Shown: one piece after another, positions 34,862 to 45,838 of the stretch | Numbering within the stretch: position 1 is the first letter of the stretch | Layout: each line of letters starts with the position of its first letter | DNA from: a virus | Taxonomy: Duplodnaviria > Caudoviricetes | Length of the DNA stretch: 57,336 nucleotides | IMG/VR virus record: IMGVR_UViG_3300032329_000679 | Location: 1 to 57,336 of that record | Direction: 5' to 3' (one strand) | Notes under the pieces: model-generated | Seen by the model: the letters and a program-made list of their open reading frames with translations, nothing else | Told to the model about the DNA's origin: nothing | The model's database searches: none | Program-made: the position numbers and the translations under genes

Positions 34862-35683
34862 ATGACCACAAACTATCTTAATAATCGAGATCTGCTAGAG
34901 GAAATTCATAGAAGTAAAAATTCTTACTCTAGCTATACTAAACCAGAATACCATCAGTATGATATCATACTACCCAATGTTGAAAAAATCAATATTAGAA
35001 CTGTGGCTGACGCCAAACGCAGTCGTGCCAAAAGAATAGGCGACGAAAATTATTCAAGAAGAAAAGCCGCAGGAGAAAAAGTCAAAATAGCTGATTGCGA
35101 AATTGACTACAAAAAAATTCCAAAGATTGATTTGGTATTCAGGATCATGACTTATGAACATATTCCTGTGAACAAAACAAGAAAAAAAGTTCAAAAGTCC
35201 GAAGCTGATGGAAGAGATAAAGTGAATTTTCCTCCTTTCCAACATTGGAAATTTGACGATAATGATGAATTAATTTGTGTAGGCCGTAGTCACTGGAAAG
35301 GTACCGTGGACAAAGGACGATTTAGCAAAGATCATGGCCAGATTACTGACACACTAGCACGTATGTATATCAAATTGTGTGAACGTTATGCTACCCGAGG
35401 TAATGTCAGAGGCTATACCTACAACGATGAAATGCGAGCACAAGCTATTTTACAACTGACTCAAGTGGGTTTACAATTTGACGAATCAAAAAGTAATAAT
35501 CCTTTTGCATACTTCACTGCCGCAGTGACTAATAGCTTTGTACGAATTATTAATATTGAAAAGAAAAATCAAAACATTCGAGACGATATCCTAGAAATGA
35601 ATGACATGGCTCCCAGTTATACTAGAACCAGTAACGCTGAATACTCAGCAGGACTACGTAGATTTGAACGTGAGGAAGAATGA
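34862..35683 (+). CDS. gp55: late-transcription sigma factor, T4 gp55-like; start revised to ATG 34862
   Basis: NYLNNRDLL, N.RGYTYNDEM and FDESKSNNPFAYFT motifs; adjacent to gp47/gp46 as in T4. Confidence 0.85.
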   Translation: MTTNYLNNRDLLEEIHRSKNSYSSYTKPEYHQYDIILPNVEKINIRTVADAKRSRAKRIGDENYSRRKAAGEKVKIADCEIDYKKIPKIDLVFRIMTYEHIPVNKTRKKVQKSEADGRDKVNFPPFQHWKFDDNDELICVGRSHWKGTVDKGRFSKDHGQITDTLARMYIKLCERYATRGNVRGYTYNDEMRAQAILQLTQVGLQFDESKSNNPFAYFTAAVTNSFVRIINIEKKNQNIRDDILEMNDMAPSYTRTSNAEYSAGLRRFEREEE

Positions 35684-36693
35684 CAAATCTTTTTAAACGT
35701 GTGGCCCTATTCACAGACATACACTTTGGACTTAAAAGTAACAGCGCCACACACAATCAAGACTGTGAAGATTTTGTAGATTGGTACATTAGCAAAGCAA
35801 AGGAGTTAGACTGTGATGTTGGGATTTTTATGGGCGATTGGCATCATAACCGTAATAGTCTTAATATTACGACCATGGATTATAGTCTTAGAGCCTTGGA
35901 AAAACTGGGGCAAGCCTTTGATCGTTTTTATTTTTTTCCTGGCAATCATGACTTATACTACAAAGACAAACGCGATATTCATAGCGTAGAATTTGGCAAG
36001 TATATACCAGGAATTACCGTAGTACACAAGCCCATGACAGAAGGCAATGTGACCATGTGCCCTTGGCTAGTGGGAGACGAATGGCGAAGTATAGGTAAAC
36101 GAGGTGGCAAATATATCTTTGGTCACTTTGAATTGCCTAGCTTTTTTATGAATGCCATGGTACAGATGCCAGATCATGGCGAAATTAAATTAGAACATTT
36201 TCAAAATTACGAACTTGGCTTCAGTGGACACTTCCATAAACGTCAACAACAAAAGAACATGATCTATATTGGCAATGCATTCCCGCACAATTACGCTGAT
36301 GCTTGGGACGATGATCGTGGCATGTGCGTATTAGAATGGGGAGGGCAACCAGAATACTACAGCTGGCCCGATCAACCTACTTTTAGAACTATTAAACTTA
36401 GCGAACTGATTGACAACGGCGCTAAAATTATCAAGCCTAAACAACATCTTAGAGTCACATTGGACATTGATATTAGCTATGAAGAAGCTAGTTTTATTAA
36501 AGAAACTTACTTGGCAGATTATGACATTAGAGAATTGACCTTGATTCCAGAAAAGCGCGAAGTAGAATTGACCAGCGACACTGATATTAAGGCATTTGAA
36601 AGCGTGGATCAAATTGTGACCAATCAATTGATCAGCGTGGAAAGTGACACTTATGACGTAAACCTTCTATTAGACATTTACAATAACCTATGA
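35680..36693 (+). CDS. gp47: recombination endonuclease subunit, gp47 / Mre11-SbcD-like
   Basis: Metallophosphoesterase motifs DIHFG, GDWHH, GNHD and SGHFH. Confidence 0.9.
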   Translation: MTNLFKRVALFTDIHFGLKSNSATHNQDCEDFVDWYISKAKELDCDVGIFMGDWHHNRNSLNITTMDYSLRALEKLGQAFDRFYFFPGNHDLYYKDKRDIHSVEFGKYIPGITVVHKPMTEGNVTMCPWLVGDEWRSIGKRGGKYIFGHFELPSFFMNAMVQMPDHGEIKLEHFQNYELGFSGHFHKRQQQKNMIYIGNAFPHNYADAWDDDRGMCVLEWGGQPEYYSWPDQPTFRTIKLSELIDNGAKIIKPKQHLRVTLDIDISYEEASFIKETYLADYDIRELTLIPEKREVELTSDTDIKAFESVDQIVTNQLISVESDTYDVNLLLDIYNNL

Positions 36694-38468
36694 TTCGTAT
36701 TAAAGATTTAACTGTTAAAAATTTCATGAGCGTGGGTAATCAAACCCAAGCTGTAGATTTTTGCAAAGAACAACTGACACTGGTCTTAGGTGAAAACTTA
36801 GATCAAGGCGGTGATGACAGCGGCAGTCGCAACGGCACAGGCAAAACTACTATTGTCAATGCCTTAAGTTATGCCTTATTTGGTCAGGCTCTTACTAACA
36901 TTAAGAAAGATAACTTAGTCAACAAGACTAATAATAAGAACATGATTGTCACACTGAATTTTGAAAAAAGTGGTGTGAGCTATAAAATAGAACGTGGTCG
37001 CAGACCTAATATTTTTAAATTTTTTATCAATGGCGAAGAACAGGACACTGACAATATTGACGAAAGTCAAGGTGATGTTAGAGAAACTCAGCGTGATTTA
37101 GATGCACTGTTAGGCATGAGTCACGACATGTTCAAACATATTGTGGCACTTAATACCTATACCGAACCATTCCTCAGTATGCGAGCCGCTGATCAAAGAA
37201 TGATCATTGAACAATTACTGGGCGTTACCTTGCTTAGTGAAAAAAGTGAAAGCCTGAAAGAATTAGTTAGACTAACTAAGGAAGAAATTAATCAAGAATC
37301 TGCCAATATCGAAGCCACTAAAAAAAGTAATGATCGTATTGAACAAAGTATTACTGGTTTAGAAACCAAGCAACGAGCATGGCGTAAACAGCAAAAAGAT
37401 GATTGCGAAAAGGTTGCTGAAAAGATTTTAGAACTACAAAACATTGACATTGAACAAGAACTAGCACAACATGCTCTACTAAAAAGTTATGACGAGTTGT
37501 CAGCTAAAATTCGAAGTCTCAACAAGGAAAAATCCACTTTAGAAACTGCTGTTGGGCAGGCTGAAAAGTCTGTGAACAAATATAAAAAAGAAGTGGAGCA
37601 ACTGGCCGATAAGACTTGCCATGCTTGTCAACAACAGTTATTGGATCATAAACATGGTGAAATGACTGAGACTGCCTTGGCTAATTTCAATGAAGCTAAA
37701 GAATATTTCAAAAAAACTTCGGCCAGTTTGAAAAAGATTCAAAAAGAAATCAAGGATATTGGTGATATCAATGGTCGTCCTGAAACATTTTACGACACCG
37801 TAGAACAGGCCTTAAAACATCAAAACAATTTGACCAGTTTGGAAGAAGCACTTGTCAAACGTAATGATGATGTGGATCCTTATCAAGAACAGATTGACGA
37901 ACTACGCAACACAGCCATACAGGAAGTAAGTTGGGACCATGTTAACCAATTAAACAAACTAAAAGAGCATCAGGAATTTTTACTTAAATTATTGACCAGC
38001 AAGGACAGTTTTATTCGTAAGAAAATTATTGATCAAAACTTGGCCTATCTCAATAATAGACTAACCTACTATCTAGACAAAATGGGATTGCCACATGTTG
38101 TTAGATTTCAAAATGATCTCACTGTGGAAATTACACAGTTGGGTCAAGACTTGGATTTTGACAACTTGTCACGTGGCGAACGTAATAGATTAATCTTAGG
38201 TCTAAGCTGGAGTTTCCGTGATGTGTGGGAAAGCTTATATGACAATATTAATTTATTGTTCATTGACGAACTTATTGACAACGGATTAGATGCTAGTGGA
38301 GTAGAGGGTGCGTTGGCTGTACTTAAAAAGATGGCACGTGAACGTAACAAAAATATCTACTTGATCAGTCACAAGGATGAATTGATTGGCCGTGTAAACA
38401 ATGTGTTAAAGGTCATCAAGGAAAATGGTTATACTAGCTATGCCAATGATTTGGAGGTAGTAGAATGA
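36690..38468 (+). CDS. gp46: recombination ATPase subunit, gp46 / Rad50-SbcC-like
   Basis: Walker A NGTGKTT, zinc-hook CHAC, signature LSRGE, Walker B LFIDE, and ISH. Confidence 0.92.
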   Translation: MIRIKDLTVKNFMSVGNQTQAVDFCKEQLTLVLGENLDQGGDDSGSRNGTGKTTIVNALSYALFGQALTNIKKDNLVNKTNNKNMIVTLNFEKSGVSYKIERGRRPNIFKFFINGEEQDTDNIDESQGDVRETQRDLDALLGMSHDMFKHIVALNTYTEPFLSMRAADQRMIIEQLLGVTLLSEKSESLKELVRLTKEEINQESANIEATKKSNDRIEQSITGLETKQRAWRKQQKDDCEKVAEKILELQNIDIEQELAQHALLKSYDELSAKIRSLNKEKSTLETAVGQAEKSVNKYKKEVEQLADKTCHACQQQLLDHKHGEMTETALANFNEAKEYFKKTSASLKKIQKEIKDIGDINGRPETFYDTVEQALKHQNNLTSLEEALVKRNDDVDPYQEQIDELRNTAIQEVSWDHVNQLNKLKEHQEFLLKLLTSKDSFIRKKIIDQNLAYLNNRLTYYLDKMGLPHVVRFQNDLTVEITQLGQDLDFDNLSRGERNRLILGLSWSFRDVWESLYDNINLLFIDELIDNGLDASGVEGALAVLKKMARERNKNIYLISHKDELIGRVNNVLKVIKENGYTSYANDLEVVE

Positions 38469-38719: not shown

Positions 38720-38722
38720 TTG

Positions 38723-39160
38723 ATGTCATGGTATTATGAAAATCAACTAGTCACAGAAATATCAGAAGATTACATAGGCTTCGTTTACATCATAACAAAC
38801 TTAACCACAAATAAAAAATACATAGGCAAAAAACTAGCCAAGTTCGCTAAGACCACTTATAAAGTTGTCAAGTTGAAAAACGGCACAAAGAAAAGAAAAA
38901 AGATTCGAGGCAAAATAGAAAGTGACTGGCAAGAATATTATGGCTCCAACGATGAACTCAACAAAGACGTATTAAAATTAGGCAAAGAAAATTTTAGGCG
39001 AGAAATTTTATATTACTGCAAGACCAAAAGCGAATGTAGTTACATAGAGGCAAGAGAACAATTTTCAAGGCGTGTATTAGAAAGCGACGATTACTACAAC
39101 GGGCATATTCAGGTCAGAGTTCACGGCAAACACATCATAGGCAAACAGTTAAACGGTTAA
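38723..39160 (+). CDS. stand-alone GIY-YIG family endonuclease (ATG 38723; the track starts at TTG 38720)
   Basis: GFVYIITN...KKYIGKK, YYGS, conserved E (IEAREQ) and YYN; no C-terminal DNA-binding extension. Confidence 0.75.
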   Translation: MSWYYENQLVTEISEDYIGFVYIITNLTTNKKYIGKKLAKFAKTTYKVVKLKNGTKKRKKIRGKIESDWQEYYGSNDELNKDVLKLGKENFRREILYYCKTKSECSYIEAREQFSRRVLESDDYYNGHIQVRVHGKHIIGKQLNG

Positions 39161-39615
39161 GGCTAGCGCAGGCTAATTTCATGCGCCTCTAAACCTGGAC
39201 ATCGGTGTCACAGGGACGAGAAACTCTGGCCGTTCGGAGGACTCAACCACTACCCGCAAGGATGAGGATAGCAAAATGCCGCTATTTGGTTGTTTGAAAA
39301 GGATTAACAGGCTAAAAGAAGGGGCTCTGATGAAAAAGATACAACCCCAAAGTAGTTAGGCAAGACTATATTTGTTTAATTATTTCCCGTCGTATAGAAG
39401 ACTGGGCTCGAGGTACAGGATGACCGCCTCTGTAATGCCCTAATATAGTATCGGACTAAGCAACTCGCATAATGTCTTTTTTTCTCCCGGCAACGGGAGA
39501 AGTACGTCCACGCAATCTGCATAATATATCAGCTACGCAGTGTTTATTATTAACAACAAAGAAAGAAAAAAGTTTTAAGACGTGAGTCTTAAAACAGAGT
39601 GAGCTTGCTCACTCT
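39161..39615 (+). ncRNA. putative large structured non-coding RNA or cis element
   Basis: The only long ORF-free gap in the window, with about 10 helices, GCAA/GUGA/CUUG loops, G-U pairs favouring the + strand and a predicted pseudoknot (see findings). Confidence 0.65.
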
Positions 39616-39619
39616 CGAA

Positions 39620-39627
39620 TATAAATA
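39620..39627 (+). promoter_or_regulatory. T4-type late promoter TATAAATA
   Basis: Exact consensus, 5 nt before ATG 39633. Confidence 0.75.
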
Positions 39628-39632
39628 ATCAT

Positions 39633-40574
39633 ATGAAGATTAATGAATTATTGGATACATCACAGATTGAAGATTTAGATGAAAGCCTATTAGGTCTTTT
39701 AGGCACAGGAGTGGGATTAGCTGCAAGAGGTGCTGGAGCTCTTCTTAAAGGATCTAAAACTGGTAAGCAGGCATTACAGGCTGTGGGTCGTAGAGTTGCT
39801 CCTACCATGGCTGCTAGTACTGGCAAAGCAGATAGAATACTAAGAAGTGCCGGAGTCGATACTAGTACTTGGTTAAACTCTAAATGGCGTGATGTATTAG
39901 CTTGGCAGATTCAAAGAAAAGGCATGAAAGCCTTTAAGGCTGGGCAGGCAGCAGCCTATGAAAATGGTAAAATAGCCACTAATCTAGTAAGTGACTTGGG
40001 ATTATCAGCATTTGGGCTAGCCACGTTGGCATATGATTTAACCAGTTATTATCATACTAGACAGGCTCTTCAAGAAAAGTATGCCAATGATCCAGATAAA
40101 TTAGATCAGGCATTGAACGAATTAAATGTAGGCATGGTAGCCTCTGTTTTTCTTCCTAGAGTAGTAGGTACACTAGGCAAAATGACCAGTAAGGTAGTAG
40201 GCGGTATCATAGGTAAAGTAGCAGGTCCGCGTGCTGGTGCATTTACAAAGTTTTGGGGAGGCATGGTGGCCAAAGCAGGTGAAGCAAGTGCCATGGCTAT
40301 TTTCCGTAGTAATGCAGGTAAAAAATGGTTAGCTGATTCCTTGGCATTTGTGTCCACAGGTATAGGTGTTGCATCAAAGTTATTGTCAGCATTAGGTGAT
40401 TTAATCAAGGCCGCTGGCGGTGTTATTTCTGATCTTTTTAACACTTTATTTGACAATCCCAACTTAATCAGTATAGGTGTAGCTGGTAAATGGTTGCCTA
40501 GTGGCATGGGGGACAAGTTACCTTGGCAAAAAGACAAAGATAAAGAAGAACCTACTCCGGCTAAAAAGGATTAA
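39633..40574 (+). CDS. Ala/Gly-rich hydrophobic late protein, possible internal head or ejection protein
   Basis: Late promoter, N-terminal MKINELL...LDE, amphipathic and hydrophobic segments. Confidence 0.55.
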   Translation: MKINELLDTSQIEDLDESLLGLLGTGVGLAARGAGALLKGSKTGKQALQAVGRRVAPTMAASTGKADRILRSAGVDTSTWLNSKWRDVLAWQIQRKGMKAFKAGQAAAYENGKIATNLVSDLGLSAFGLATLAYDLTSYYHTRQALQEKYANDPDKLDQALNELNVGMVASVFLPRVVGTLGKMTSKVVGGIIGKVAGPRAGAFTKFWGGMVAKAGEASAMAIFRSNAGKKWLADSLAFVSTGIGVASKLLSALGDLIKAAGGVISDLFNTLFDNPNLISIGVAGKWLPSGMGDKLPWQKDKDKEEPTPAKKD

Positions 40575-40791: not shown

Positions 40792-41643
40792 TTATTTTTT
40801 TCCGAAAAAATTTGATGGATCCAATGTTACAGAAAGATCTGTTTCGTGTTGACAGTTATCACAGGTCACGTGTTGTTTGGGCAAATCCCAGATTTCTTTA
40901 TTTTTTTCTAATTTCTTTTTGATTTCTTGGAAAAAATGTCTTTCGGTATTTTGTAACCACTCGCTGATGAACTCCATATCTTCTACAACTTCGTTGCCTA
41001 CTCTAACACTTTCGATACTGCTGATAAAAAGTTTTACTTGTATTTCACTAATGGTTCGATAGATTTCAGCCTGCATACTTTTTATTTTTTCTGGACCATT
41101 TTCTTCTTCTGCAAGATCACTTTTGTTTAATTGAAACAACATTTTTTGCAATTTAAAATTTTCTATATTAAAGTCTGTGACTTCTTTATAGGTTAACGGT
41201 CTTAAATTAATAGTTAGATCATCTATGGTAATTTTTCCATCATAAGTTTGACTATTAAAATAGTCTAACATTTTAGTAAGATCTATTTGATAGTCATTTT
41301 CGTGATCACATTCTGAGCAAGTGTGACTGATATCCAGTCCTTCTCCATAAGTGGCGATTCTTATGCCGATCAATAATGTATCGATGTCAATACTGGGAAT
41401 TTCATTGCCTGATTTAATATATGGACAGCAGCTTTCTATTACTTTGGTAGTGCTTTCACCGTTCATTAAGGCATCGGGAGTTTTAAAAATAATTTCATCC
41501 ATACCAGTCATGCTGAAGATAGGCACATTATTATAATCTCCCTGTAATGAATTATTCTTGTAAAAAAGACCTTTACTGGGAAGACTAATGTAAATTTTCG
41601 GTTGGCGAAAATATTTCTGTAATGGATTACCTTGAATTGACAT
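40792..41643 (-). CDS. baseplate hub assembly protein (gp26-like)
   Basis: LPSKG.FY, D.D.LLI.IRIATYG and two CxxC pairs (CSEC, CDNC). Confidence 0.7.
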   Translation of the reverse strand: MSIQGNPLQKYFRQPKIYISLPSKGLFYKNNSLQGDYNNVPIFSMTGMDEIIFKTPDALMNGESTTKVIESCCPYIKSGNEIPSIDIDTLLIGIRIATYGEGLDISHTCSECDHENDYQIDLTKMLDYFNSQTYDGKITIDDLTINLRPLTYKEVTDFNIENFKLQKMLFQLNKSDLAEEENGPEKIKSMQAEIYRTISEIQVKLFISSIESVRVGNEVVEDMEFISEWLQNTERHFFQEIKKKLEKNKEIWDLPKQHVTCDNCQHETDLSVTLDPSNFFGKK

Positions 41644-41701: not shown

Positions 41702-44700
41702 ATGGCAAAAGATGATGGTGTTGGTAAAAAAGTAGTTGATGCAACTAAAGATGCAGCAAAAGGGCTAGAAGGGTTTGCTAAACAAGCCGGAAGAGCCGAT
41801 AAAGCTTTAGATTCTTACACTGGATCAGTTGAAGCAGCAGCAGCAGGTGCAGTTGATTTATTAACAACACCTTGGAGGAAGATGGCTCAACTCATAGGCA
41901 CCAATACGGAAGCCTTTGAGCAGTTAAACAAAACTGGTATGAGTTTTGGTAACAGCATGAACAACATACGCATGAGTGCAGCAGATATGCGTATGGGACT
42001 CGATGAGTTTACTAGGTTCATGGGAGAGAATCAAAAAAGTTTTGCCAGTCTTGGCGGTACTGTAGGTAAAGGTGCTCAGAATTTTGCTGAGATGAGCAAG
42101 CTCATGCAGGCCAACAGTGAAAAATTAACTCAAATGGGTTATGGCTATGAGGAATTAAATCAAATATTGGCCATTCAAGTTGGTGCCAGTAAGGCCAAAA
42201 TAGAAGGCGATGAAGCCGCTAGAAACAGACAAATTGCCGGCGCAATAAAACTAGCCGAAGAAATGGACGGGTTAGCCAAGCTCACTGGTGTTAGTAGAAA
42301 AGAACAAGAAGAAACAAGAAAAGCTCTTCAAAAGGACATGGCATTTGAAGCTGCCATGCGTCAAGAAACACGCAACATGACCAAGGAGGATGCTGAAAAA
42401 TATAGAGCAGCCATGATGGATCTTGTAGCGACAACAGAAGCTACTCAAGGTGCTGCTGCCGGTGCTGCTATTAAAGAATCGATAATAACCGGAGGTAGTT
42501 TACAAAGTGGTGAAGCCATGGCTCATGCTTCTTTGAATAATGAAGCATATCAAAAATCCATGGAAGCTAGGGAAAAAATCAAGCAAGGTGATTATGAAGG
42601 AGCCAAACGATCCAAAGAATCATCGGATGCTGCTGCAATAACTTCACAAAATAGTGACGCAAATCTCAGTGTGGCAAGGTATGTGGGAGGCACTGCTGGT
42701 AATGTGGCCAAGGGCACAATGGCTGCTACTCAAACACAATTTGAAGGTTTGAAATCTTTAGAGGACTCTTTATCAAGACAAGGTAAAACTATATCAGATG
42801 TTAATGAGTTAATGGGCCGACAGAAGGCTGCGATTAAGCAAGAACAAGAAGCTAGGGATGGCGTAACAGCAGCCATGATAACCACAAAGAATAGACTAGC
42901 TGATGCAACTGCTGCTACTACTAGGGTAGTAGGCGAAACCATGGGCAAAGGGTCTAAGATGGAACAGGACATGCTTAAGGTTTCCGACAAGAATAGTGCA
43001 TCTAAGCGAGACGAGTACGCTAATAATTTTAGGAATAGTGGTGTTAAAGGTGCTGTGCAATTAGGTGCAGATCTTGCAGGTACAGCAGTTGTAGGATTAG
43101 ATAAGTTAGCTGACGAAGCCGTTAAATTAGCCGGCGAATTGAAAAAATGGTATGATCAGGTTAAACAACAAAATAATGAAAGAACTCCGACAAGAACCCC
43201 TGGATCTAGAGATGGGGGCACATTAGAAAAAACAGGTAGTCCTATAGAACCCATGGATGCACTTGTTAAAATTCACAAAGGAGAAACAGTATTAAGTCCA
43301 GAATCTACTAAAAACATGGCCAAACAATTGTCAGAGGGCAGAGAAGGAATGACACAGTCGGGTAGAGAAGGAATGACACAAATGTCACCAGCATCAATTT
43401 CTAAGATGCTTGGCCAACCAGGTGGTGCTGCAACTAAATCAGTGGGCGGTGCTATGCCTGGAATTGACATTAATAAAATACTCACAGACATTAAGACCAC
43501 AGTCAGTAAGGTAGAAATCAGTAACTGGCCCAAGGAACTTAAAGACATTGGCAAAGCAGCCCCAGTTCAGACACAGCCCGCAGCACCTGCACCTAAGCCC
43601 GCAGAAGTAAAAAAAGAGGAGCCTAAACCAGCGCCTAAGGCAGCTGAAGCAAAGCCAGCAGAGAAGCCAGCAGAGAAGCCACCTGAAGCCAAGCCAGCAG
43701 AAAAGCCACCTGAGGCTAAGCCAGCAGAAAAGCCACCTGGGGCTAAGCCAGCAGAAAAGCCACCTGAGGCTAAGCCAGCAGAAGTTAAATCTCCTAATAC
43801 TTCAGAGTCTTATAAAATCAATGGCAAGGAAGTTGGCAAGGAAGACTTTGACAAGCATATGGAAGCTAATCCAGCCTTGGCTAAACTAATGGACAGTGCC
43901 AAAGCTAATTTAGCTAAAGTTAGTAGTGATGCAGGCAGTGTAGGTGGTATGACACCCAGTGTTGGTGGTAGTGGAGATCCAGTAGCAGAGGCAGCCGCTT
44001 CAATGGAACGTATGAAAGCCCAGCAGGCACAATTTAACAAGGATGTTGAAGACGCAGAATTAGAAAGATTAATAGCTCAACAAGCTAATTTGAAAAAAAC
44101 TCAAGATGTTGTCAATGAAGAATTAGGTGTCAAACAACAAGCCAATGAAAAAGAGTTAGATTTCACCAATAGTTTTGTGTTAACAACTGCGGGGTTGAAT
44201 AATCGTCAACGAGAGATGCACGGTGAATTAGCCAAGTTGACCTTAGAGGATAGTAAAGAAAAATTAGAGGCAAATAAAAAACAACAAGAAGCAACATTAG
44301 CTGAAATGAGGGCCATAGATTCCAAAGCCAATGCCATAGAAGCAACAGCTAAAAAAGAAGGTCGTGCTCTGACAGAAAGCGAAGAAGCACAGGTTAAGGC
44401 ATTGGATGAAGAAGCTAGTGCAAAGAGTAAAGCCAGGCAAAAAGAAAATGCTCGTATGGCAGATGAGAATAAGGTATTAGAAAGATTAATTCGAGATAAA
44501 ACAATGGCCGAAAAGGCTGGCATGGAAACATCCATAGCCGAGAATGGCAAAATAGTCAAAGTAATGGAGCAAAATTCCAAGAAAATTGCCGAGGATATTA
44601 AAGAGGCCTTGCCAGTTAAGGATGTAAGTGCATCGTCAGAACAAGTAGGTGATGTATATCAGAAACACGGTGAATCTGTTTTAGGATTTGCCAAATTGTA

Positions 44701-45838
44701 TACAGATGAACAAATGGCCACTTATAAAGAAGGTGCAGAAACTTCTTTAAAACAAAACAAAGAACAACTAGAAGAAAATAATGTAGAACTAGCAGGGTTA
44801 CGTACTAAGGCAATGGAAAGCGAATTGTCCACTGCTGAACAACAAAAAATAAAACGTCTTGAAACTGAAAACGCTCTTTTAGAAAGTGGTATCAAATATA
44901 ACGAAGCAGAAATTGAAGCTTATAAAAAAGTTGAAAATGAAAAGAAAGGCATTGTTACAGAATCAACGGCCAAAATAGCAGAGACTATATCAGAAGCATT
45001 GCCCGTTAAGGACATTGAAAAAGGTAAAGAGTTATTAGAGGAAAGAATTAAGTTACAAAACGAAGCTGAAGAAAAGGCTGCCTTGGCTGATGAAGAGGAA
45101 ATAGCAAGGATTGAAGTTGCAGCACAGGCCAAGTTTGCTGCTGATGAGGAAGCAGCCATAGCTCAAGCCGATCTCGCTTCTTTATTGCCTAAAACTATAG
45201 ATTTAGAAAAAGAACGAATCGATTTACAGAACAAGGCAGAACAGGATGCTATGGCCTATGAAGAGGAGGAAATAGCGAGGATTGATGCTGAAGCACAGGC
45301 CAAGTTTGCTGCTGATGAAGAAGCAGCCATAGCTCAAGCTGATCTTGCGTCCCTAATACCTAAACCTATAGATTTAGAAAAAATGGGCGGGGATATGTTG
45401 GCAAATATGGTTCCTGATAAAAAGTATAGTGATCAAGACTCTGCATCAAGAACCACAGCTGATATAAATCAGCCATCTATAAACAAGGCCAAGTCTACCA
45501 AGTTCAGTGACATCAGTGTGGATGCTAGCGGAATGCCGGTGATTAGAAGTAAAGCTGAAAGCCTTAAAAAAGAAGAACCTAAAAAAGAACCAAGTCCTGG
45601 GAAGAAAATTAATCCAGAAACTGGAGAAGAATATACGCCAGTTGATGAATCAAAGCCGTCAAAATCCACTAAGGAAGGCGCTAAAGAGCAGAAATCAAAT
45701 CTAGATGACGTAGTAAAGAAACTAGAGTTGTTAAATACTACAATGAATAATCTTATAAAGAAAACTGAAGAAGCAGCAGCCAATCAAGTTAAGGCTACAA
45801 AAGGCATTGCCAGTGGTAACTTATTTGGGGCAAGATAA
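41702..45838 (+). CDS. tape measure-like protein
   Basis: 1378-aa Ala/Lys/Glu/Met-rich helical protein with a HKGETVL motif; adjacent to hub assembly genes. Confidence 0.65.
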   Translation: MAKDDGVGKKVVDATKDAAKGLEGFAKQAGRADKALDSYTGSVEAAAAGAVDLLTTPWRKMAQLIGTNTEAFEQLNKTGMSFGNSMNNIRMSAADMRMGLDEFTRFMGENQKSFASLGGTVGKGAQNFAEMSKLMQANSEKLTQMGYGYEELNQILAIQVGASKAKIEGDEAARNRQIAGAIKLAEEMDGLAKLTGVSRKEQEETRKALQKDMAFEAAMRQETRNMTKEDAEKYRAAMMDLVATTEATQGAAAGAAIKESIITGGSLQSGEAMAHASLNNEAYQKSMEAREKIKQGDYEGAKRSKESSDAAAITSQNSDANLSVARYVGGTAGNVAKGTMAATQTQFEGLKSLEDSLSRQGKTISDVNELMGRQKAAIKQEQEARDGVTAAMITTKNRLADATAATTRVVGETMGKGSKMEQDMLKVSDKNSASKRDEYANNFRNSGVKGAVQLGADLAGTAVVGLDKLADEAVKLAGELKKWYDQVKQQNNERTPTRTPGSRDGGTLEKTGSPIEPMDALVKIHKGETVLSPESTKNMAKQLSEGREGMTQSGREGMTQMSPASISKMLGQPGGAATKSVGGAMPGIDINKILTDIKTTVSKVEISNWPKELKDIGKAAPVQTQPAAPAPKPAEVKKEEPKPAPKAAEAKPAEKPAEKPPEAKPAEKPPEAKPAEKPPGAKPAEKPPEAKPAEVKSPNTSESYKINGKEVGKEDFDKHMEANPALAKLMDSAKANLAKVSSDAGSVGGMTPSVGGSGDPVAEAAASMERMKAQQAQFNKDVEDAELERLIAQQANLKKTQDVVNEELGVKQQANEKELDFTNSFVLTTAGLNNRQREMHGELAKLTLEDSKEKLEANKKQQEATLAEMRAIDSKANAIEATAKKEGRALTESEEAQVKALDEEASAKSKARQKENARMADENKVLERLIRDKTMAEKAGMETSIAENGKIVKVMEQNSKKIAEDIKEALPVKDVSASSEQVGDVYQKHGESVLGFAKLYTDEQMATYKEGAETSLKQNKEQLEENNVELAGLRTKAMESELSTAEQQKIKRLETENALLESGIKYNEAEIEAYKKVENEKKGIVTESTAKIAETISEALPVKDIEKGKELLEERIKLQNEAEEKAALADEEEIARIEVAAQAKFAADEEAAIAQADLASLLPKTIDLEKERIDLQNKAEQDAMAYEEEEIARIDAEAQAKFAADEEAAIAQADLASLIPKPIDLEKMGGDMLANMVPDKKYSDQDSASRTTADINQPSINKAKSTKFSDISVDASGMPVIRSKAESLKKEEPKKEPSPGKKINPETGEEYTPVDESKPSKSTKEGAKEQKSNLDDVVKKLELLNTTMNNLIKKTEEAAANQVKATKGIASGNLFGAR
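43646..43783 (+). repeat. 27-nt tandem repeat encoding (K)PAEKPPEA, about 4-5 copies
   Basis: AAGCCAGCAGAAAAGCCACCTGAGGCT units read directly. Confidence 0.9.
45041..45381 (+). repeat. 171-nt (57 aa) tandem duplication in the tape measure gene
   Basis: EEEIARI...AQAKFAADEEAAIAQADLASL.PK.IDLEK occurs twice; GCACAGGCCAAGTTTGCTGCTGATGA at 45122 and 45293. Confidence 0.9.

What the first reader, a model, noticed from the sequence alone, without database searches (positions are those of the whole stretch)
38723..39615. Stand-alone GIY-YIG nuclease gene directly followed by a ~460-nt highly structured non-coding element (candidate new nuclease-RNA system)
Seen: in a genome with almost no intergenic space, 39161-39632 is ORF-free, more GC-rich than its flanks, and structured from just after the GIY-YIG stop. 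Helices found by eye: GCGCA/TGCGC (39166-86); CCTG-GACA-tcgg-TGTC-a-CAGG (39194-214); CAACCA/TGGTTG (39244-92) enclosing CC-GCAA-GG and ATAGC/GCTAT; GGGG/CCCC (39321-48); a 14-bp helix 39350-63/39372-85 with four G-U pairs, which would be A-C mismatches on the other strand and so favours + strand RNA; GGGC/GCCC (39404-40) enclosing GAGG/CCTC; TTCTCCCG-GCAA-CGGGAGAA (39482-501). GACGAG (39215-20) may pair at long range with CCCGTC (39386-91), or GGACG with CGTCC (39505-09). Known: the protein has only the GIY-YIG catalytic domain plus a basic insert (KLKNGTKKRKKIRGK), and lacks the DNA-recognition tail of homing endonucleases such as I-TevI. IscB/HEARO and TnpB are precedents for a compact nuclease encoded beside a structured RNA. 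Inference: the pair may form a ribonucleoprotein (RNA-guided or RNA-regulated nickase), or a nuclease plus primer RNA for replication. I cannot match the element to a named RNA family.
Basis: partly seen in the sequence, partly recalled or inferred. Interest (0 to 1): 0.9.

Follow-up and report, generated by a model that had tools for sequence, protein, structure and literature searches.

The report
Large structured phage RNA after nuclease
The stretch after the small GIY-YIG nuclease gene is a real folded RNA of about 370 bases, found in hundreds of freshwater phage contigs; its first third was already catalogued as the Polynucleobacter-1 motif, and its function is still unknown.

Summary
39161-39527 (+) is a conserved, pseudoknotted RNA, followed by terminator hairpins to about 39615. 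Covariation is strong on 53 sequences: 79.5% of cells paired against 36-45% in slid controls, and 0 of 500 shuffles reached it. G-U cells outnumber A-C cells 204 to 6, which fixes the + strand.

39161-39295 is Rfam RF01718, Polynucleobacter-1 (111 bits). That motif is only the 5' third. The conserved core is a 3' domain with two pseudoknots that has no Rfam match.

In T4-like freshwater phages the RNA always follows a small nuclease gene: usually the 146-aa GIY-YIG, or a PD-(D/E)XK nuclease in 11 loci. The pair is not obligate. The RNA occurs without either nuclease in other phage-like contigs and in Methylococcales-labelled contigs. The GIY-YIG family occurs in 459 cultured-phage records, and five of those examined had no such RNA.

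Best reading: an autonomous structured RNA gene of unknown function. A nuclease-RNA particle is unproven.

One unexplained feature: two 7-base segments about 55 bases apart are identical in 260 of 260 distinct sequences, across 14 variants.

The parts
38720..39160 (+). 146-aa stand-alone GIY-YIG nuclease gene (Pfam PF19835; PHROG phrog_447)
   Evidence: There are 147 distinct homologues of 142-150 aa with the GIY, YIG, E and N motifs conserved. Median dN/dS is 0.14 on the 32 of 150 sampled pairs with dS below 3.
39161..39295 (+). 5' domain of the RNA = Rfam RF01718 Polynucleobacter-1 (helices 39166-70/39182-86, 39195-201/39206-13, 39224-27/39236-39, 39244-49/39287-92, 39254-55/39260-61, 39267-72/39281-86)
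   Evidence: cmscan gives 111.3 bits against a gathering score of 37, E 2.4e-23, over model positions 1-141. Covariation is, helices 1-8.
39296..39527 (+). 3' domain, the conserved core of the family, with no Rfam match
   Evidence: No Rfam hit at E up to 10 apart from chance-level hits. It is conserved in 222 of 229 loci and in 120 of 120 metagenome loci. The invariant runs are listed.
39321..39348 (+). hairpin GGGG/CCCC (39321-24/39345-48)
   Evidence: helix 9: 82% paired, and 3 of 4 pairs change on both sides.
39350..39385 (+). 14-bp hairpin 39350-63/39372-85 with four G-U pairs; its loop 39365-71 forms pseudoknot 1
   Evidence: helix 10: the inner pairs covary strongly. The outer part is misaligned by MAFFT (68% paired overall).
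39365..39449 (+). pseudoknot 1: loop ACUAUAU 39365-71 pairs with AUAUAGU 39443-49
   Evidence: ranks it as the top helix. helix 11: 96.2% paired, and 7 of 7 pairs change on both sides. A further compensatory change is seen in L096.
39389..39424 (+). pseudoknot 2: GUCGU 39389-93 pairs with AUGAC 39420-24, which lies in the loop of the GAGGU/GCCUC hairpin
   Evidence: helix 12: 99.6% paired. Across all loci, 137 of 150 distinct stretches keep all three variable pairs, 120 of them as Watson-Crick pairs, in 12 or more triplet combinations.
39404..39440 (+). helix GGGC/GCCC (39404-07/39437-40) enclosing hairpin 39410-14/39426-30
   Evidence: helices 13 (98.1% paired, 4 of 4 pairs covary) and 14 (97.4% paired).
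39461..39473 (+). segment 1: CAA-CUC-GCAUAAU (the 7-mer is 39467-73)
39482..39501 (+). hairpin UUCUCCCG-GCAA-CGGGAGAA between the two segments
   Evidence: Present in all sequences by eye. The MAFFT columns are poor (helix 15: 54% paired).
39513..39525 (+). segment 2: CAA-UCU-GCAUAAU (the 7-mer is 39519-25). Conservation of the RNA ends just after it.
   Evidence: The 7-mer equals that of segment 1 in 260 of 260 distinct sequences. The end of conservation is seen.
39572..39595 (-). intrinsic-terminator-like hairpin for minus-strand transcripts (stem followed by a T run on the - strand)
   Evidence: In most relatives the genes downstream converge on this point.
39596..39615 (+). second hairpin AGAGUGAG-CUUG-CUCACUCU, a possible end of the + strand transcript
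   Evidence: Read from the sequence; equivalent hairpins appear in relatives. In one search I entered this helix one base out of register, so its 44% paired figure there is not meaningful.
39620..39627 (+). TATAAATA just before the ATG at 39633. It matches the T4 late-promoter consensus, which I recall from memory.
   Evidence: Sequence. The downstream 313-aa ORF was found in only 2 of the 222 loci (L012, L143); a similarly placed 312-aa ORF stands after the RNA in L149.

Best explanation
39161 to about 39527 (+) is a gene for an autonomous, highly structured RNA of about 370 nt.

Its 5' third is the Rfam candidate motif Polynucleobacter-1. Its 3' two-thirds form the family's conserved core: a compact fold with two pseudoknots and long invariant single-stranded runs.

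The RNA is carried mainly by T4-like freshwater myoviruses, some of them 345-355 kb jumbo phages. There it sits at the 3' end of the gp47-gp46-(small ORFs)-nuclease block, just after the stop codon of a small nuclease gene, and faces convergent baseplate genes.

The GIY-YIG gene is a separate, selected member of a widespread phage nuclease family. Its adjacency to the RNA is lineage synteny, not an obligate partnership.

Inferred, not shown: the RNA acts in trans during infection as a ribozyme-like or protein-scaffolding RNA. Its two identical 3' segments would serve as two equivalent docking sites for one common partner.
For: Real RNA on the + strand:
- Covariation on 53 sequences with median pairwise identity 66%: 79.5% of cells paired against 36-45% in slid controls, covariation score 0.335 against 0.07-0.10, and 0 of 500 shuffles as high.
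- 204 G-U cells against 6 A-C cells.

Known 5' part: RF01718 at 111 bits.

The core is the 3' domain:
- 9 of 14 loci tested keep the 3' domain but have no RF01718 match at gathering score; those displayed carry a different 5' domain, with no Rfam match in the one tested.
- The Methylococcales-labelled copies keep every 3' helix.

Autonomy:
- The RNA occurs with a divergent upstream gene and no GIY-YIG or PDDEXK in L093, L095, L096 and L106.
- It also occurs that way in L285, L333, L254 and L286.
- It follows PF24608 PDDEXK_15 instead of GIY-YIG in 4 + 7 loci.

The nuclease family stands alone elsewhere:
- 459 cultured-phage records hold a homologue.
- In the five examined, the next CDS starts 0-148 nt after it, and neither the core pattern nor nhmmer finds the RNA.
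- It is under purifying selection.

The downstream gene is on the opposite strand in most loci, so the RNA is not a 5' leader. An RNA-library contig of 653 nt bridges the nuclease ORF into the RNA (38737-39389). This is weak evidence, since DNA carry-over is possible.
Against: - The function is not shown by anything here.
- Folding energy of the single sequence is not better than shuffles.
- Apart from 39613-39618 at its far 3' edge, the finding stretch (38723-39615) differs from the nearest contigs of this set at many places, and the window copy has features of its own, so the window copy may not behave like the family.
- No phage locus with room upstream lacks a nuclease gene, apart from L261, whose upstream 247-aa ORF matched nothing.
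- Two unrelated nuclease families sit in exactly the same place, with their stop codon a few bases before the RNA. That is more than simple synteny predicts and keeps a functional link open.
- The RNA's ends, abundance and independence from the nuclease mRNA are unknown in phages.
- Viral and metagenome collections overlap in origin, so locus counts are not independent.
Confidence: 0.7

Rival explanations
1. Nuclease-RNA module. The RNA binds the upstream nuclease and guides, activates or restrains it, as the first reader proposed by analogy with IscB/HEARO and TnpB.
For: - Fixed adjacency in the T4-like lineage: 76 of 77 GIY loci with room.
- In RNA-anchored sets: 101 adjacent + 9 nearby GIY and 4 PDDEXK among 139 loci, then 96 GIY + 7 PDDEXK among 120.
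- The stop codon is usually 4-66 nt before the RNA.
- Adjacency persists down to 33-41% protein identity (L150, L173).
- A non-homologous small nuclease takes the same slot in three different RNA lineages.
- A NYN nuclease gene lies about 0.5 kb downstream of the RNA in L106 and L092.
Against: - One RNA scaffold serving two unrelated nuclease folds would be unusual.
- The RNA occurs without any such nuclease in at least 8 loci with room.
- The protein family is common without the RNA.
- No hypervariable guide-like segment was seen. The region after segment 2 holds small hairpins and terminators.
- All linked loci share one gene order.
Confidence: 0.12
2. Homing-type relation. The small nuclease genes are, or descend from, free-standing selfish nuclease cassettes that settled beside the RNA gene because its very conserved DNA is a good cleavage and landing site. 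I recall that T4 SegB sits among tRNA genes in this way.
For: - Two unrelated nuclease families occupy the identical intergenic slot.
- Extra insertions of 0.15-2 kb lie between nuclease and RNA in some loci, for example a 287-aa ORF in L005.
- The GIY-YIG family sits in many different neighbourhoods in cultured phages, as mobile genes do.
- Pfam's best match is the SegE GIY-YIG domain, and weaker PHROG matches are homing endonucleases.
Against: - No empty sites: no T4-like locus with room lacks a nuclease, whereas selfish endonuclease genes are usually patchy.
- The protein has no DNA-binding domain.
- It is under purifying selection, with median dN/dS of 0.14.
Confidence: 0.15
3. Cis-acting mRNA element. 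Either a 3' UTR that stabilises or regulates the nuclease operon mRNA, or a 5' leader of the downstream gene. Weinberg et al. 2010 rated the motif as probably cis-regulatory in their Table 1.
For: - It starts right after the stop codon.
- An RNA-library contig bridges the ORF and the RNA.
- The window, L012, L143 and L149 have a same-strand ORF after it.
- Table 1 of PMC2864571 marks it y for cis-regulatory.
Against: - About 370 nt with two pseudoknots is far more than known UTR elements need.
- Upstream genes differ: GIY-YIG, PDDEXK, or none on the same strand.
- Downstream genes are mostly convergent.
- In L285 and the Methylococcales-labelled loci the upstream gene is divergent, so the RNA must have its own promoter.
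Confidence: 0.08
4. Template RNA. The two identical segments are realignment sites that let a polymerase copy the roughly 55-nt unit between them repeatedly, as in telomerase or DRT2/DRT10-type systems.
For: Identical 7-mers flank a unit of 47-61 nt in 260 of 260 distinct sequences. The second copy lies at the 3' end of the conserved RNA. Precedent: passages on DRT2 in bioRxiv 10.64898/2026.09.22.753630, and the abstract listing of the DRT10 preprint.
Against: - No reverse transcriptase (PF00078) in the window record or in three large relatives, two of them 99-100% complete.
- Unit lengths are not multiples of three, and the unit carries UAA or UGA.
- No product is known.
Confidence: 0.03
5. 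DNA-level element, such as an origin, a packaging site or a recombination site, rather than an RNA.
For: Direct repeats and hairpins lie at a boundary between convergent transcription units.
Against: Helices tolerate G-U but not A-C (204 cells against 6). Pseudoknots covary with Watson-Crick changes.
Confidence: 0.02

Closest known systems
Polynucleobacter-1 RNA motif (Rfam RF01718; Weinberg et al. 2010, PMC2864571, Table 1 row and column key read)
   Same: 39161-39295 matches the whole 141-position model at 111 bits, with all its helices. The habitat agrees: the table gives 'Burkholderiales, fresh water/estuary', and one of my loci (L100) is from a Polynucleobacter-labelled MAG.
   Different: The Rfam model covers only the first third. 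The 230-nt 3' domain with two pseudoknots and the paired 7-mers is not in Rfam. Some members replace the RF01718 domain with another 5' domain. The carriers are mostly T4-like phages, and the gene layout argues against the paper's 'probably cis-regulatory' rating. The paper discusses the motif only in additional files, which I could not open.
   Same: Several hundred nucleotides, many helices and pseudoknots, carried by phages, with no known function.
   Different: No sequence or structure match to any Rfam family other than RF01718. No tRNA genes in the window. The position after a nuclease gene in T4-like phages is specific to this RNA.
IscB/HEARO and TnpB omega-RNA systems
   Same: A compact nuclease gene lies next to a long structured RNA on the same strand.
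   Different: The nuclease fold is GIY-YIG or PD-(D/E)XK, not RuvC/HNH. No guide-like hypervariable end was seen. No transposon ends were looked for or seen. The two partners occur apart.
Free-standing GIY-YIG homing endonucleases of T4 (Seg proteins; SegB beside tRNA genes), recalled from memory
   Same: The GIY-YIG domain is of SegE type. It sits in a T4-like phage beside a conserved RNA gene, and an alternative nuclease family occupies the same slot.
   Different: The protein is 146 aa with no DNA-binding tail. The gene is fixed in the lineage and under purifying selection.
Template RNAs with terminal direct repeats (telomerase RNA; DRT2 and DRT10 ncRNAs)
   Same: Short identical segments bracket a defined unit near the 3' end of a structured RNA.
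   Different: No reverse transcriptase in the phage genomes, and no evidence of a copied product.

Membership tests
Rfam RF01718 Polynucleobacter-1 | Covariance-model score at or above the curated gathering score (37 bits) over the full model | tested here: met
   111.3 bits, E 2.4e-23, model positions 1-141 of 141, at window 39161-39295 on the + strand.
Rfam RF01718 Polynucleobacter-1 | The model's helices are supported by covariation in relatives | tested here: met
   helices 1-8: 88-100% paired, and changes on both sides in 19 of 30 pairs.
Rfam RF01718 Polynucleobacter-1 | The family model describes the whole RNA | tested here: not met
   Conservation and covarying helices run on for about 230 nt past the model's end. 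Nine of 14 loci tested have the 3' domain but no RF01718 hit.
GIY-YIG nuclease superfamily (Pfam PF19835 SegE_GIY-YIG) | Profile score above the curated cut-off | tested here: met
   115.4 bits against a cut-off of 25, E 2.4e-33.
GIY-YIG nuclease superfamily (Pfam PF19835 SegE_GIY-YIG) | Conserved GIY and YIG motifs and downstream acidic and Asn residues. Which residues are catalytic is recalled from I-TevI, not tested here. | tested here: met
   G-[FY]-V-Y, Y-I-G-K-K, Y-x-E and Y-Y-N are conserved in at least 90-98% of 147 distinct homologues.
GIY-YIG nuclease superfamily (Pfam PF19835 SegE_GIY-YIG) | Nuclease activity | not testable with these tools
   No solved relative was found by sequence. 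No structure prediction was run.
Free-standing homing endonuclease (Seg / I-TevI type) | A C-terminal DNA-binding domain joined to the catalytic domain | tested here: not met
   The domain covers residues 4-130 of 146, and homologues are 142-150 aa.
Free-standing homing endonuclease (Seg / I-TevI type) | Patchy presence or absence among related genomes | tested here: not met
   No T4-like locus with room lacks a nuclease gene at this site. Across distant cultured phages, however, the family sits in varied places.
RNA-guided nuclease systems (IscB/HEARO, TnpB omega-RNA) | RuvC-type (plus or minus HNH) nuclease | tested here: not met
   The Pfam hits are GIY-YIG, or PDDEXK_15 in relatives.
RNA-guided nuclease systems (IscB/HEARO, TnpB omega-RNA) | Obligate co-occurrence of the nuclease and its RNA | tested here: not met
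   The RNA occurs without the nuclease, and the nuclease family occurs without the RNA.
RNA-guided nuclease systems (IscB/HEARO, TnpB omega-RNA) | A variable guide segment at one end of a conserved scaffold | tested here: inconclusive
   The sequence after segment 2 varies but forms small hairpins, an A-run and terminators. No target matching was possible.
Group I intron carrying a homing endonuclease gene | A match to intron models, with flanking exons of one gene | tested here: not met
   No intron family at E up to 10 apart from a 14-bit chance hit. The flanks are separate genes, and the downstream gene is convergent in relatives.
tRNA / tmRNA | Detected by ARAGORN or by the Rfam tmRNA models | tested here: not met
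   ARAGORN found 0 genes in the window, and there were no Rfam hits.

The most novel reading that the evidence does not exclude
The RNA is a catalytic or templating RNA. Its two always-identical 3' segments are successive docking sites for a single partner strand, either for two-step self-processing or for realignment during repeated copying of the 55-nt unit. In T4-like phages it works together with whichever small nuclease (GIY-YIG or PD-(D/E)XK) is encoded immediately upstream. This would be a new kind of nuclease-RNA module.
Probability: 0.1. Interest if true: 0.9.

Novelty: new variant of a known kind. Interest (0 to 1): 0.65.

Why it matters
Large, intricately folded RNAs of unknown function are rare, and several have turned out to be ribozymes or the cores of new machines. 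This work adds four things:
- A catalogued 141-nt candidate motif, left without a function since 2010, is the 5' third of an RNA of about 370 nt. The conserved core of that RNA, with two pseudoknots, is not in Rfam.
- The RNA is abundant in freshwater phage contigs, including jumbo T4-like phages with complete genomes.
- Its carriers and gene layout are now defined, and that layout argues against a 5'-leader role.
- Two 7-base segments never differ from each other across 14 sequence variants. That constraint is not explained by ordinary base pairing and points to an unusual mechanism.

The analysis also tempers the attractive "new RNA-guided nuclease" reading by showing that each partner occurs without the other. 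In passing it corrects a widespread mis-annotation of the nuclease family as "NAD synthetase".

Tried and rejected
1. Thermodynamic test. The minimum folding energy of 39161-39530 is no better than 100 shuffles on either strand, so it was dropped as evidence.

2. GACGAG/CCCGUC can pair in 42-52 of 53 sequences at five of its six positions and only 6 of 53 at the sixth, but only because G pairs with either C or U, and it competes with the covarying helix 39389-93/39420-24. GGACG/CGUCC is broken in the family.

3. tRNA, tmRNA, group I or II intron, RNase P. ARAGORN found none. Rfam gave nothing besides RF01718. A resemblance of AGAUGAAU to a conserved RNase P stretch is recalled from memory only and has no model support.

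4. A cis partner for the two 7-mers. The only G-U-tolerant complement is the invariant UGUUU at 39291-95. It can pair with either copy but does not covary, and it was not seen in the type-B sequences I read by eye.

5. A phage-encoded trans partner. In two complete relatives (355 and 345 kb) the 13-mer or its complement occurs nowhere else at 0 mismatches. At 1 mismatch it occurs at control level. In the window the motif is not enriched: 11 matches against 8.8 expected.

6. Translation or ribosome-hop readings of the 7-mers (a sense codon followed by UAA or UGA). By my reading, no conserved reading frame or start codon enters them.

7. Deletion variants lacking the inter-segment unit: none among 313 loci.

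8. Reverse transcriptase: none found. L300 and L279 were not held and so were not searched.

9. Expression. The look-up of sequencing runs listed six RNA runs, four of them with small shares. In the four laid, contigs at depth 2.5-5 cover the nuclease ORF. One runs on to 39389. None lay on 39401-39712. Contigs cannot show levels, ends or strand, and DNA carry-over is possible, so this neither shows nor denies a stable RNA.

10. L056, the one GIY locus without an nhmmer hit. It has an ORF-free stretch of about 500 nt with a near match to the invariant core and a repeated GGAAAAG. It is probably a divergent copy and was not counted.

11. My first regex counts of segment identity and of pseudoknot 2 were mis-anchored. 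replace them. In one search the last hairpin was entered one base out of register.

12. Literature. 'Polynucleobacter-1' is found in 1 paper. 'RF01718' is in 3 papers; I did not open the two besides Weinberg 2010. Two broader searches and passages of PMC10690425 and of a 2026 preprint mention no such RNA. PMC10690425 reports candidates of at most 151 bases and discards overlaps with Rfam.

13. No structure prediction, complex prediction or atlas search was run.
Full report
WHAT IS THERE

The window is a 57-kb fragment of an IMG/VR virus record with T4-like genes. These are an Mre11/gp47-like phosphoesterase and a Rad50/gp46-like ATPase at 35680-38468, and a T4 baseplate protein (PF12322) on the minus strand at 40792-41643. 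The ORF 38720-39160 encodes 146 aa that match Pfam PF19835 (SegE GIY-YIG domain) over residues 4-130, at E 2.4e-33. It matches PHROG phrog_447 over its full length, at 1.3e-37.

From 39161 to 39632 there is no ORF longer than 48 aa. GC rises to 0.45-0.46, from 0.33-0.37 upstream.

THE NAMED PART

cmscan places Rfam RF01718, Polynucleobacter-1 RNA, at 39161-39295 on the + strand. The score is 111.3 bits against a gathering score of 37, over the whole model. Nothing else in the window reaches a gathering score. With permissive settings nothing credible covers 39296-39700.

The one paper that discusses the motif is Weinberg et al. 2010. Its Table 1 lists it as probably an RNA, probably cis-regulatory, with riboswitch status ambiguous, from Burkholderiales and fresh water or estuary. 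Its description is in additional files that I could not open.

THE WHOLE ELEMENT IS CONSERVED

An exact 18-base pattern from the 5' domain found ten viral contigs in which the entire stretch of about 430-460 nt aligns. I collected more copies in two independent ways.

(a) Starting from the protein. At least 589 viral stretches encode a relative, and the best 80 were kept.

(b) Starting from a pattern in the 3' domain. This found 19 MAG contigs, at least 120 viral contigs and at least 120 metagenome contigs.

After two rounds of nhmmer, 222 of 229 loci hold the element, as do 120 of 120 metagenome loci. These collections overlap in origin, so the counts are not independent.

STRUCTURE

On 53 copies below 95% identity (median pairwise identity 66%), I entered a structure of 95 pairs.
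- 79.5% of cells are paired, against 36-45% when the partners are slid by 1-3 columns.
- The covariation score is 0.335, against 0.07-0.10 in the slid controls.
- 70 pairs change on both sides, and 0 of 500 shuffles reach any of the measures.

The best helices are:
- 39166-70/39182-86 (99.6% paired)
- 39244-49/39287-92 (100%)
- 39267-71/39282-86 (100%)
- 39404-07/39437-40 (98.1%)
- 39410-14/39426-30 (97.4%)

There are two pseudoknots. In the first, the loop of the 14-bp hairpin (39365-71) pairs with 39443-49: 96.2% paired, and 7 of 7 pairs covary. In the second, 39389-93 pairs with 39420-24 inside the loop of the 39410-30 hairpin: 99.6% paired.

Across all loci, pseudoknot 2 keeps its three variable pairs in 137 of 150 distinct stretches, with a dozen complementary triplet combinations. 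Some of the 13 failures are chance pattern hits or regex mis-anchoring.

Length-variable hairpins score lower because MAFFT misaligns them (helices 10, 15 and 16). I also entered the last hairpin one base out of register.

In well-aligned helices there are 2022 Watson-Crick cells, 204 G-U cells and only 6 A-C cells. The RNA is therefore read from the + strand. The single-sequence folding energy is unremarkable (z -0.38), so the case rests on comparison alone.

EXTENT AND MODULES

Conservation stops just after the second 7-mer, near 39527. This holds in phages and in the Methylococcales-labelled copies. Beyond it lie a variable linker, a hairpin that scans as a minus-strand terminator (39595-39572) and a second hairpin (39596-39615).

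The 3' domain is the constant part. In 9 of 14 loci tested, RF01718 is not detected although the 3' domain is present. Those I displayed have a different 5' domain of similar length, which matched nothing in Rfam in the one region tested (L134).

THE NUCLEASE LINK

In the protein-anchored set, 76 of 77 loci with room downstream have the RNA. The three other misses end within 22 nt of the gene. The single exception, L056, has what looks like a divergent copy.

In the RNA-anchored sets:
- GIY-YIG is directly upstream in 101 loci and further upstream in 9, out of 139.
- GIY-YIG is directly upstream in 96 of 120 metagenome loci.
- A 173-aa PF24608 PDDEXK_15 nuclease takes the same slot in 4 and 7 loci. 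These loci span three different RNA lineages.

All of these loci share one gene order: gp47, gp46, small ORFs, nuclease, RNA, then convergent p71 and baseplate genes. No T4-like locus with room lacks a nuclease. The nuclease is under purifying selection: median dN/dS is 0.14 on the 32 of 150 sampled pairs that were not saturated. Its motifs are conserved.

EACH PARTNER ALSO STANDS ALONE

The complete RNA occurs in contigs labelled Methylococcales with no such nuclease upstream. There the upstream gene is a divergent 126-138-aa ORF. Neighbours include a NYN nuclease and a TIR protein (L106, L092), an integrase next to htpG (L104) and a resolvase (L093). It also occurs in other phage-like contigs:
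- L285 and L333, next to DUF454, a metallophosphoesterase and DUF2828/DUF7788
- L254, next to an AAA ATPase
- L286

Conversely, 459 cultured-phage records encode a homologue of the GIY-YIG protein, all below 60% identity and often annotated 'NAD synthetase'. I examined five: Melnitz, P-SSM2, phiM7, a Flavobacterium phage and a Stenotrophomonas phage. In all five the gene sits in unrelated neighbourhoods, and the next CDS starts 0-148 nt after it. Neither the invariant core pattern nor nhmmer finds the RNA. Melnitz gave one 1-mismatch pattern hit, equal to the control count, and nhmmer was negative there.

READING

The RNA is an autonomous gene. The adjacency is fixed within one phage lineage, and synteny can explain it. 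Two points keep a functional or homing-type link alive as a minority view: the non-homologous replacement of the nuclease at exactly this site, and the absence of empty sites.

The layout argues against a 5'-leader role. It sits at the end of a transcription unit, faces convergent genes, and has varied neighbours elsewhere.

Expression evidence is thin. One 653-nt contig from an RNA library spans 38737-39389 at low depth.

AN UNEXPLAINED FEATURE

Near the 3' end, two segments flank a hairpin: CAA-CUC-GCAUAAU at 39461-73 and CAA-UCU-GCAUAAU at 39513-25.
- The 7-mer is identical in both copies in 53 of 53 aligned sequences, and mutual information is maximal only between the equivalent columns.
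- It is identical in 260 of 260 distinct sequences from 312 loci, with 14 variants.
- A 313th locus, L063, carries a fifteenth variant, again identical in both copies by eye.
- The three bases before the 7-mer differ by transitions (CUC against UCU). Positions -4 to -6 agree in half of the sequences.
- Spacing is 47-61 nt.

This is same-sense covariation, not complementary covariation, so ordinary pairing between the two copies does not explain it. I found no covarying partner in cis. I found no second copy or complement in two complete relatives, no reverse transcriptase, no reading frame and no deletion variants.

Two kinds of explanation remain. Either both copies dock to one partner in turn or alternately, or one copy is templated from the other. 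I cannot decide between them.

NOVELTY AND SCORE

The 5' third is a known candidate motif. The following do not appear in Rfam 15 or in the papers I could search: the full RNA, its pseudoknotted core, the alternative 5' domain, the phage carriers, the nuclease-slot pattern and the paired 7-mers. Closed supplementary files may hold fragments. I rate it a new variant of a known kind, with interest 0.65.

Noticed in passing
window 39633-40574 (+), with TATAAATA at 39620-39627: A 313-aa ORF with no Pfam family and a weak PHROG membrane-protein hit lies between the RNA and the convergent genes. It is preceded by a T4-late-promoter-like octamer (consensus recalled from memory). Only 2 of 222 loci (L012, L143) match it; L149 has a similarly placed 312-aa ORF. 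It looks like a recent insertion.
   Followed up: partly
L149:3963-4484, also L154, L172, L207 and seven metagenome loci (L235, L238, L262, L263, L335, L340, L343): A 173-aa PF24608 'phage putative PDDEXK endonuclease' replaces the GIY-YIG gene in exactly the same slot before the RNA. This occurs in loci whose RNAs belong to different sub-types.
   Followed up: partly
e.g. L147, L134, L103, L101, L113 (region between the nuclease stop codon and the 3' domain): A second type of 5' domain, about 150 nt long and containing ...CCCAUUGAGGA...CUAACUUAAGG..., stands in place of the Polynucleobacter-1 domain. It has no Rfam match.
   Followed up: partly
L106:2631-7227 and L092, L095 (contigs labelled Methylococcales): Here the RNA lies in what looks like a mobile or defence island. 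Nearby are a NYN-domain nuclease, a CAP12/Pycsar-type TIR protein and conserved small ORFs of unknown family. In L104 an integrase-like ORF (by my reading of its sequence; no family search) and htpG are adjacent.
   Followed up: partly
GenBank phage records under (e.g. KR052480.1 gp310, KJ019073.1): Many deposited records annotate the phrog_447 GIY-YIG family as 'NAD synthetase'. The Pfam and motif evidence says it is a GIY-YIG nuclease.
   Followed up: no
L093:12-85: There is a group II intron domain match (RF00029, 50.5 bits) at the edge of a Methylococcales-labelled contig that also carries the RNA, about 3 kb away.
   Followed up: no
window 39137-39160, and upstream of the RNA in L093, L095, L096, L106: The motif UAGGCAAA(C) recurs 1-3 times just upstream of the RNA in the Methylococcales-labelled loci. 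It also occurs in the last codons of the window's GIY-YIG ORF and at the start of the type-B RNAs. It could be a leader or promoter element, or chance.
   Followed up: no
window 41702-45838 (+): This 1378-aa protein has a run of AKPAEKPPE-like repeats and long coiled, Ala/Glu/Lys-rich stretches. It is conserved next to the baseplate genes in relatives. I did not analyse it.
   Followed up: no
G002 (354,680 bases, CheckV 100%) and G003 (345,154 bases, 99%): Relatives that carry the RNA are jumbo T4-like phages. CheckV estimates the window record as only 16% complete.
   Followed up: partly
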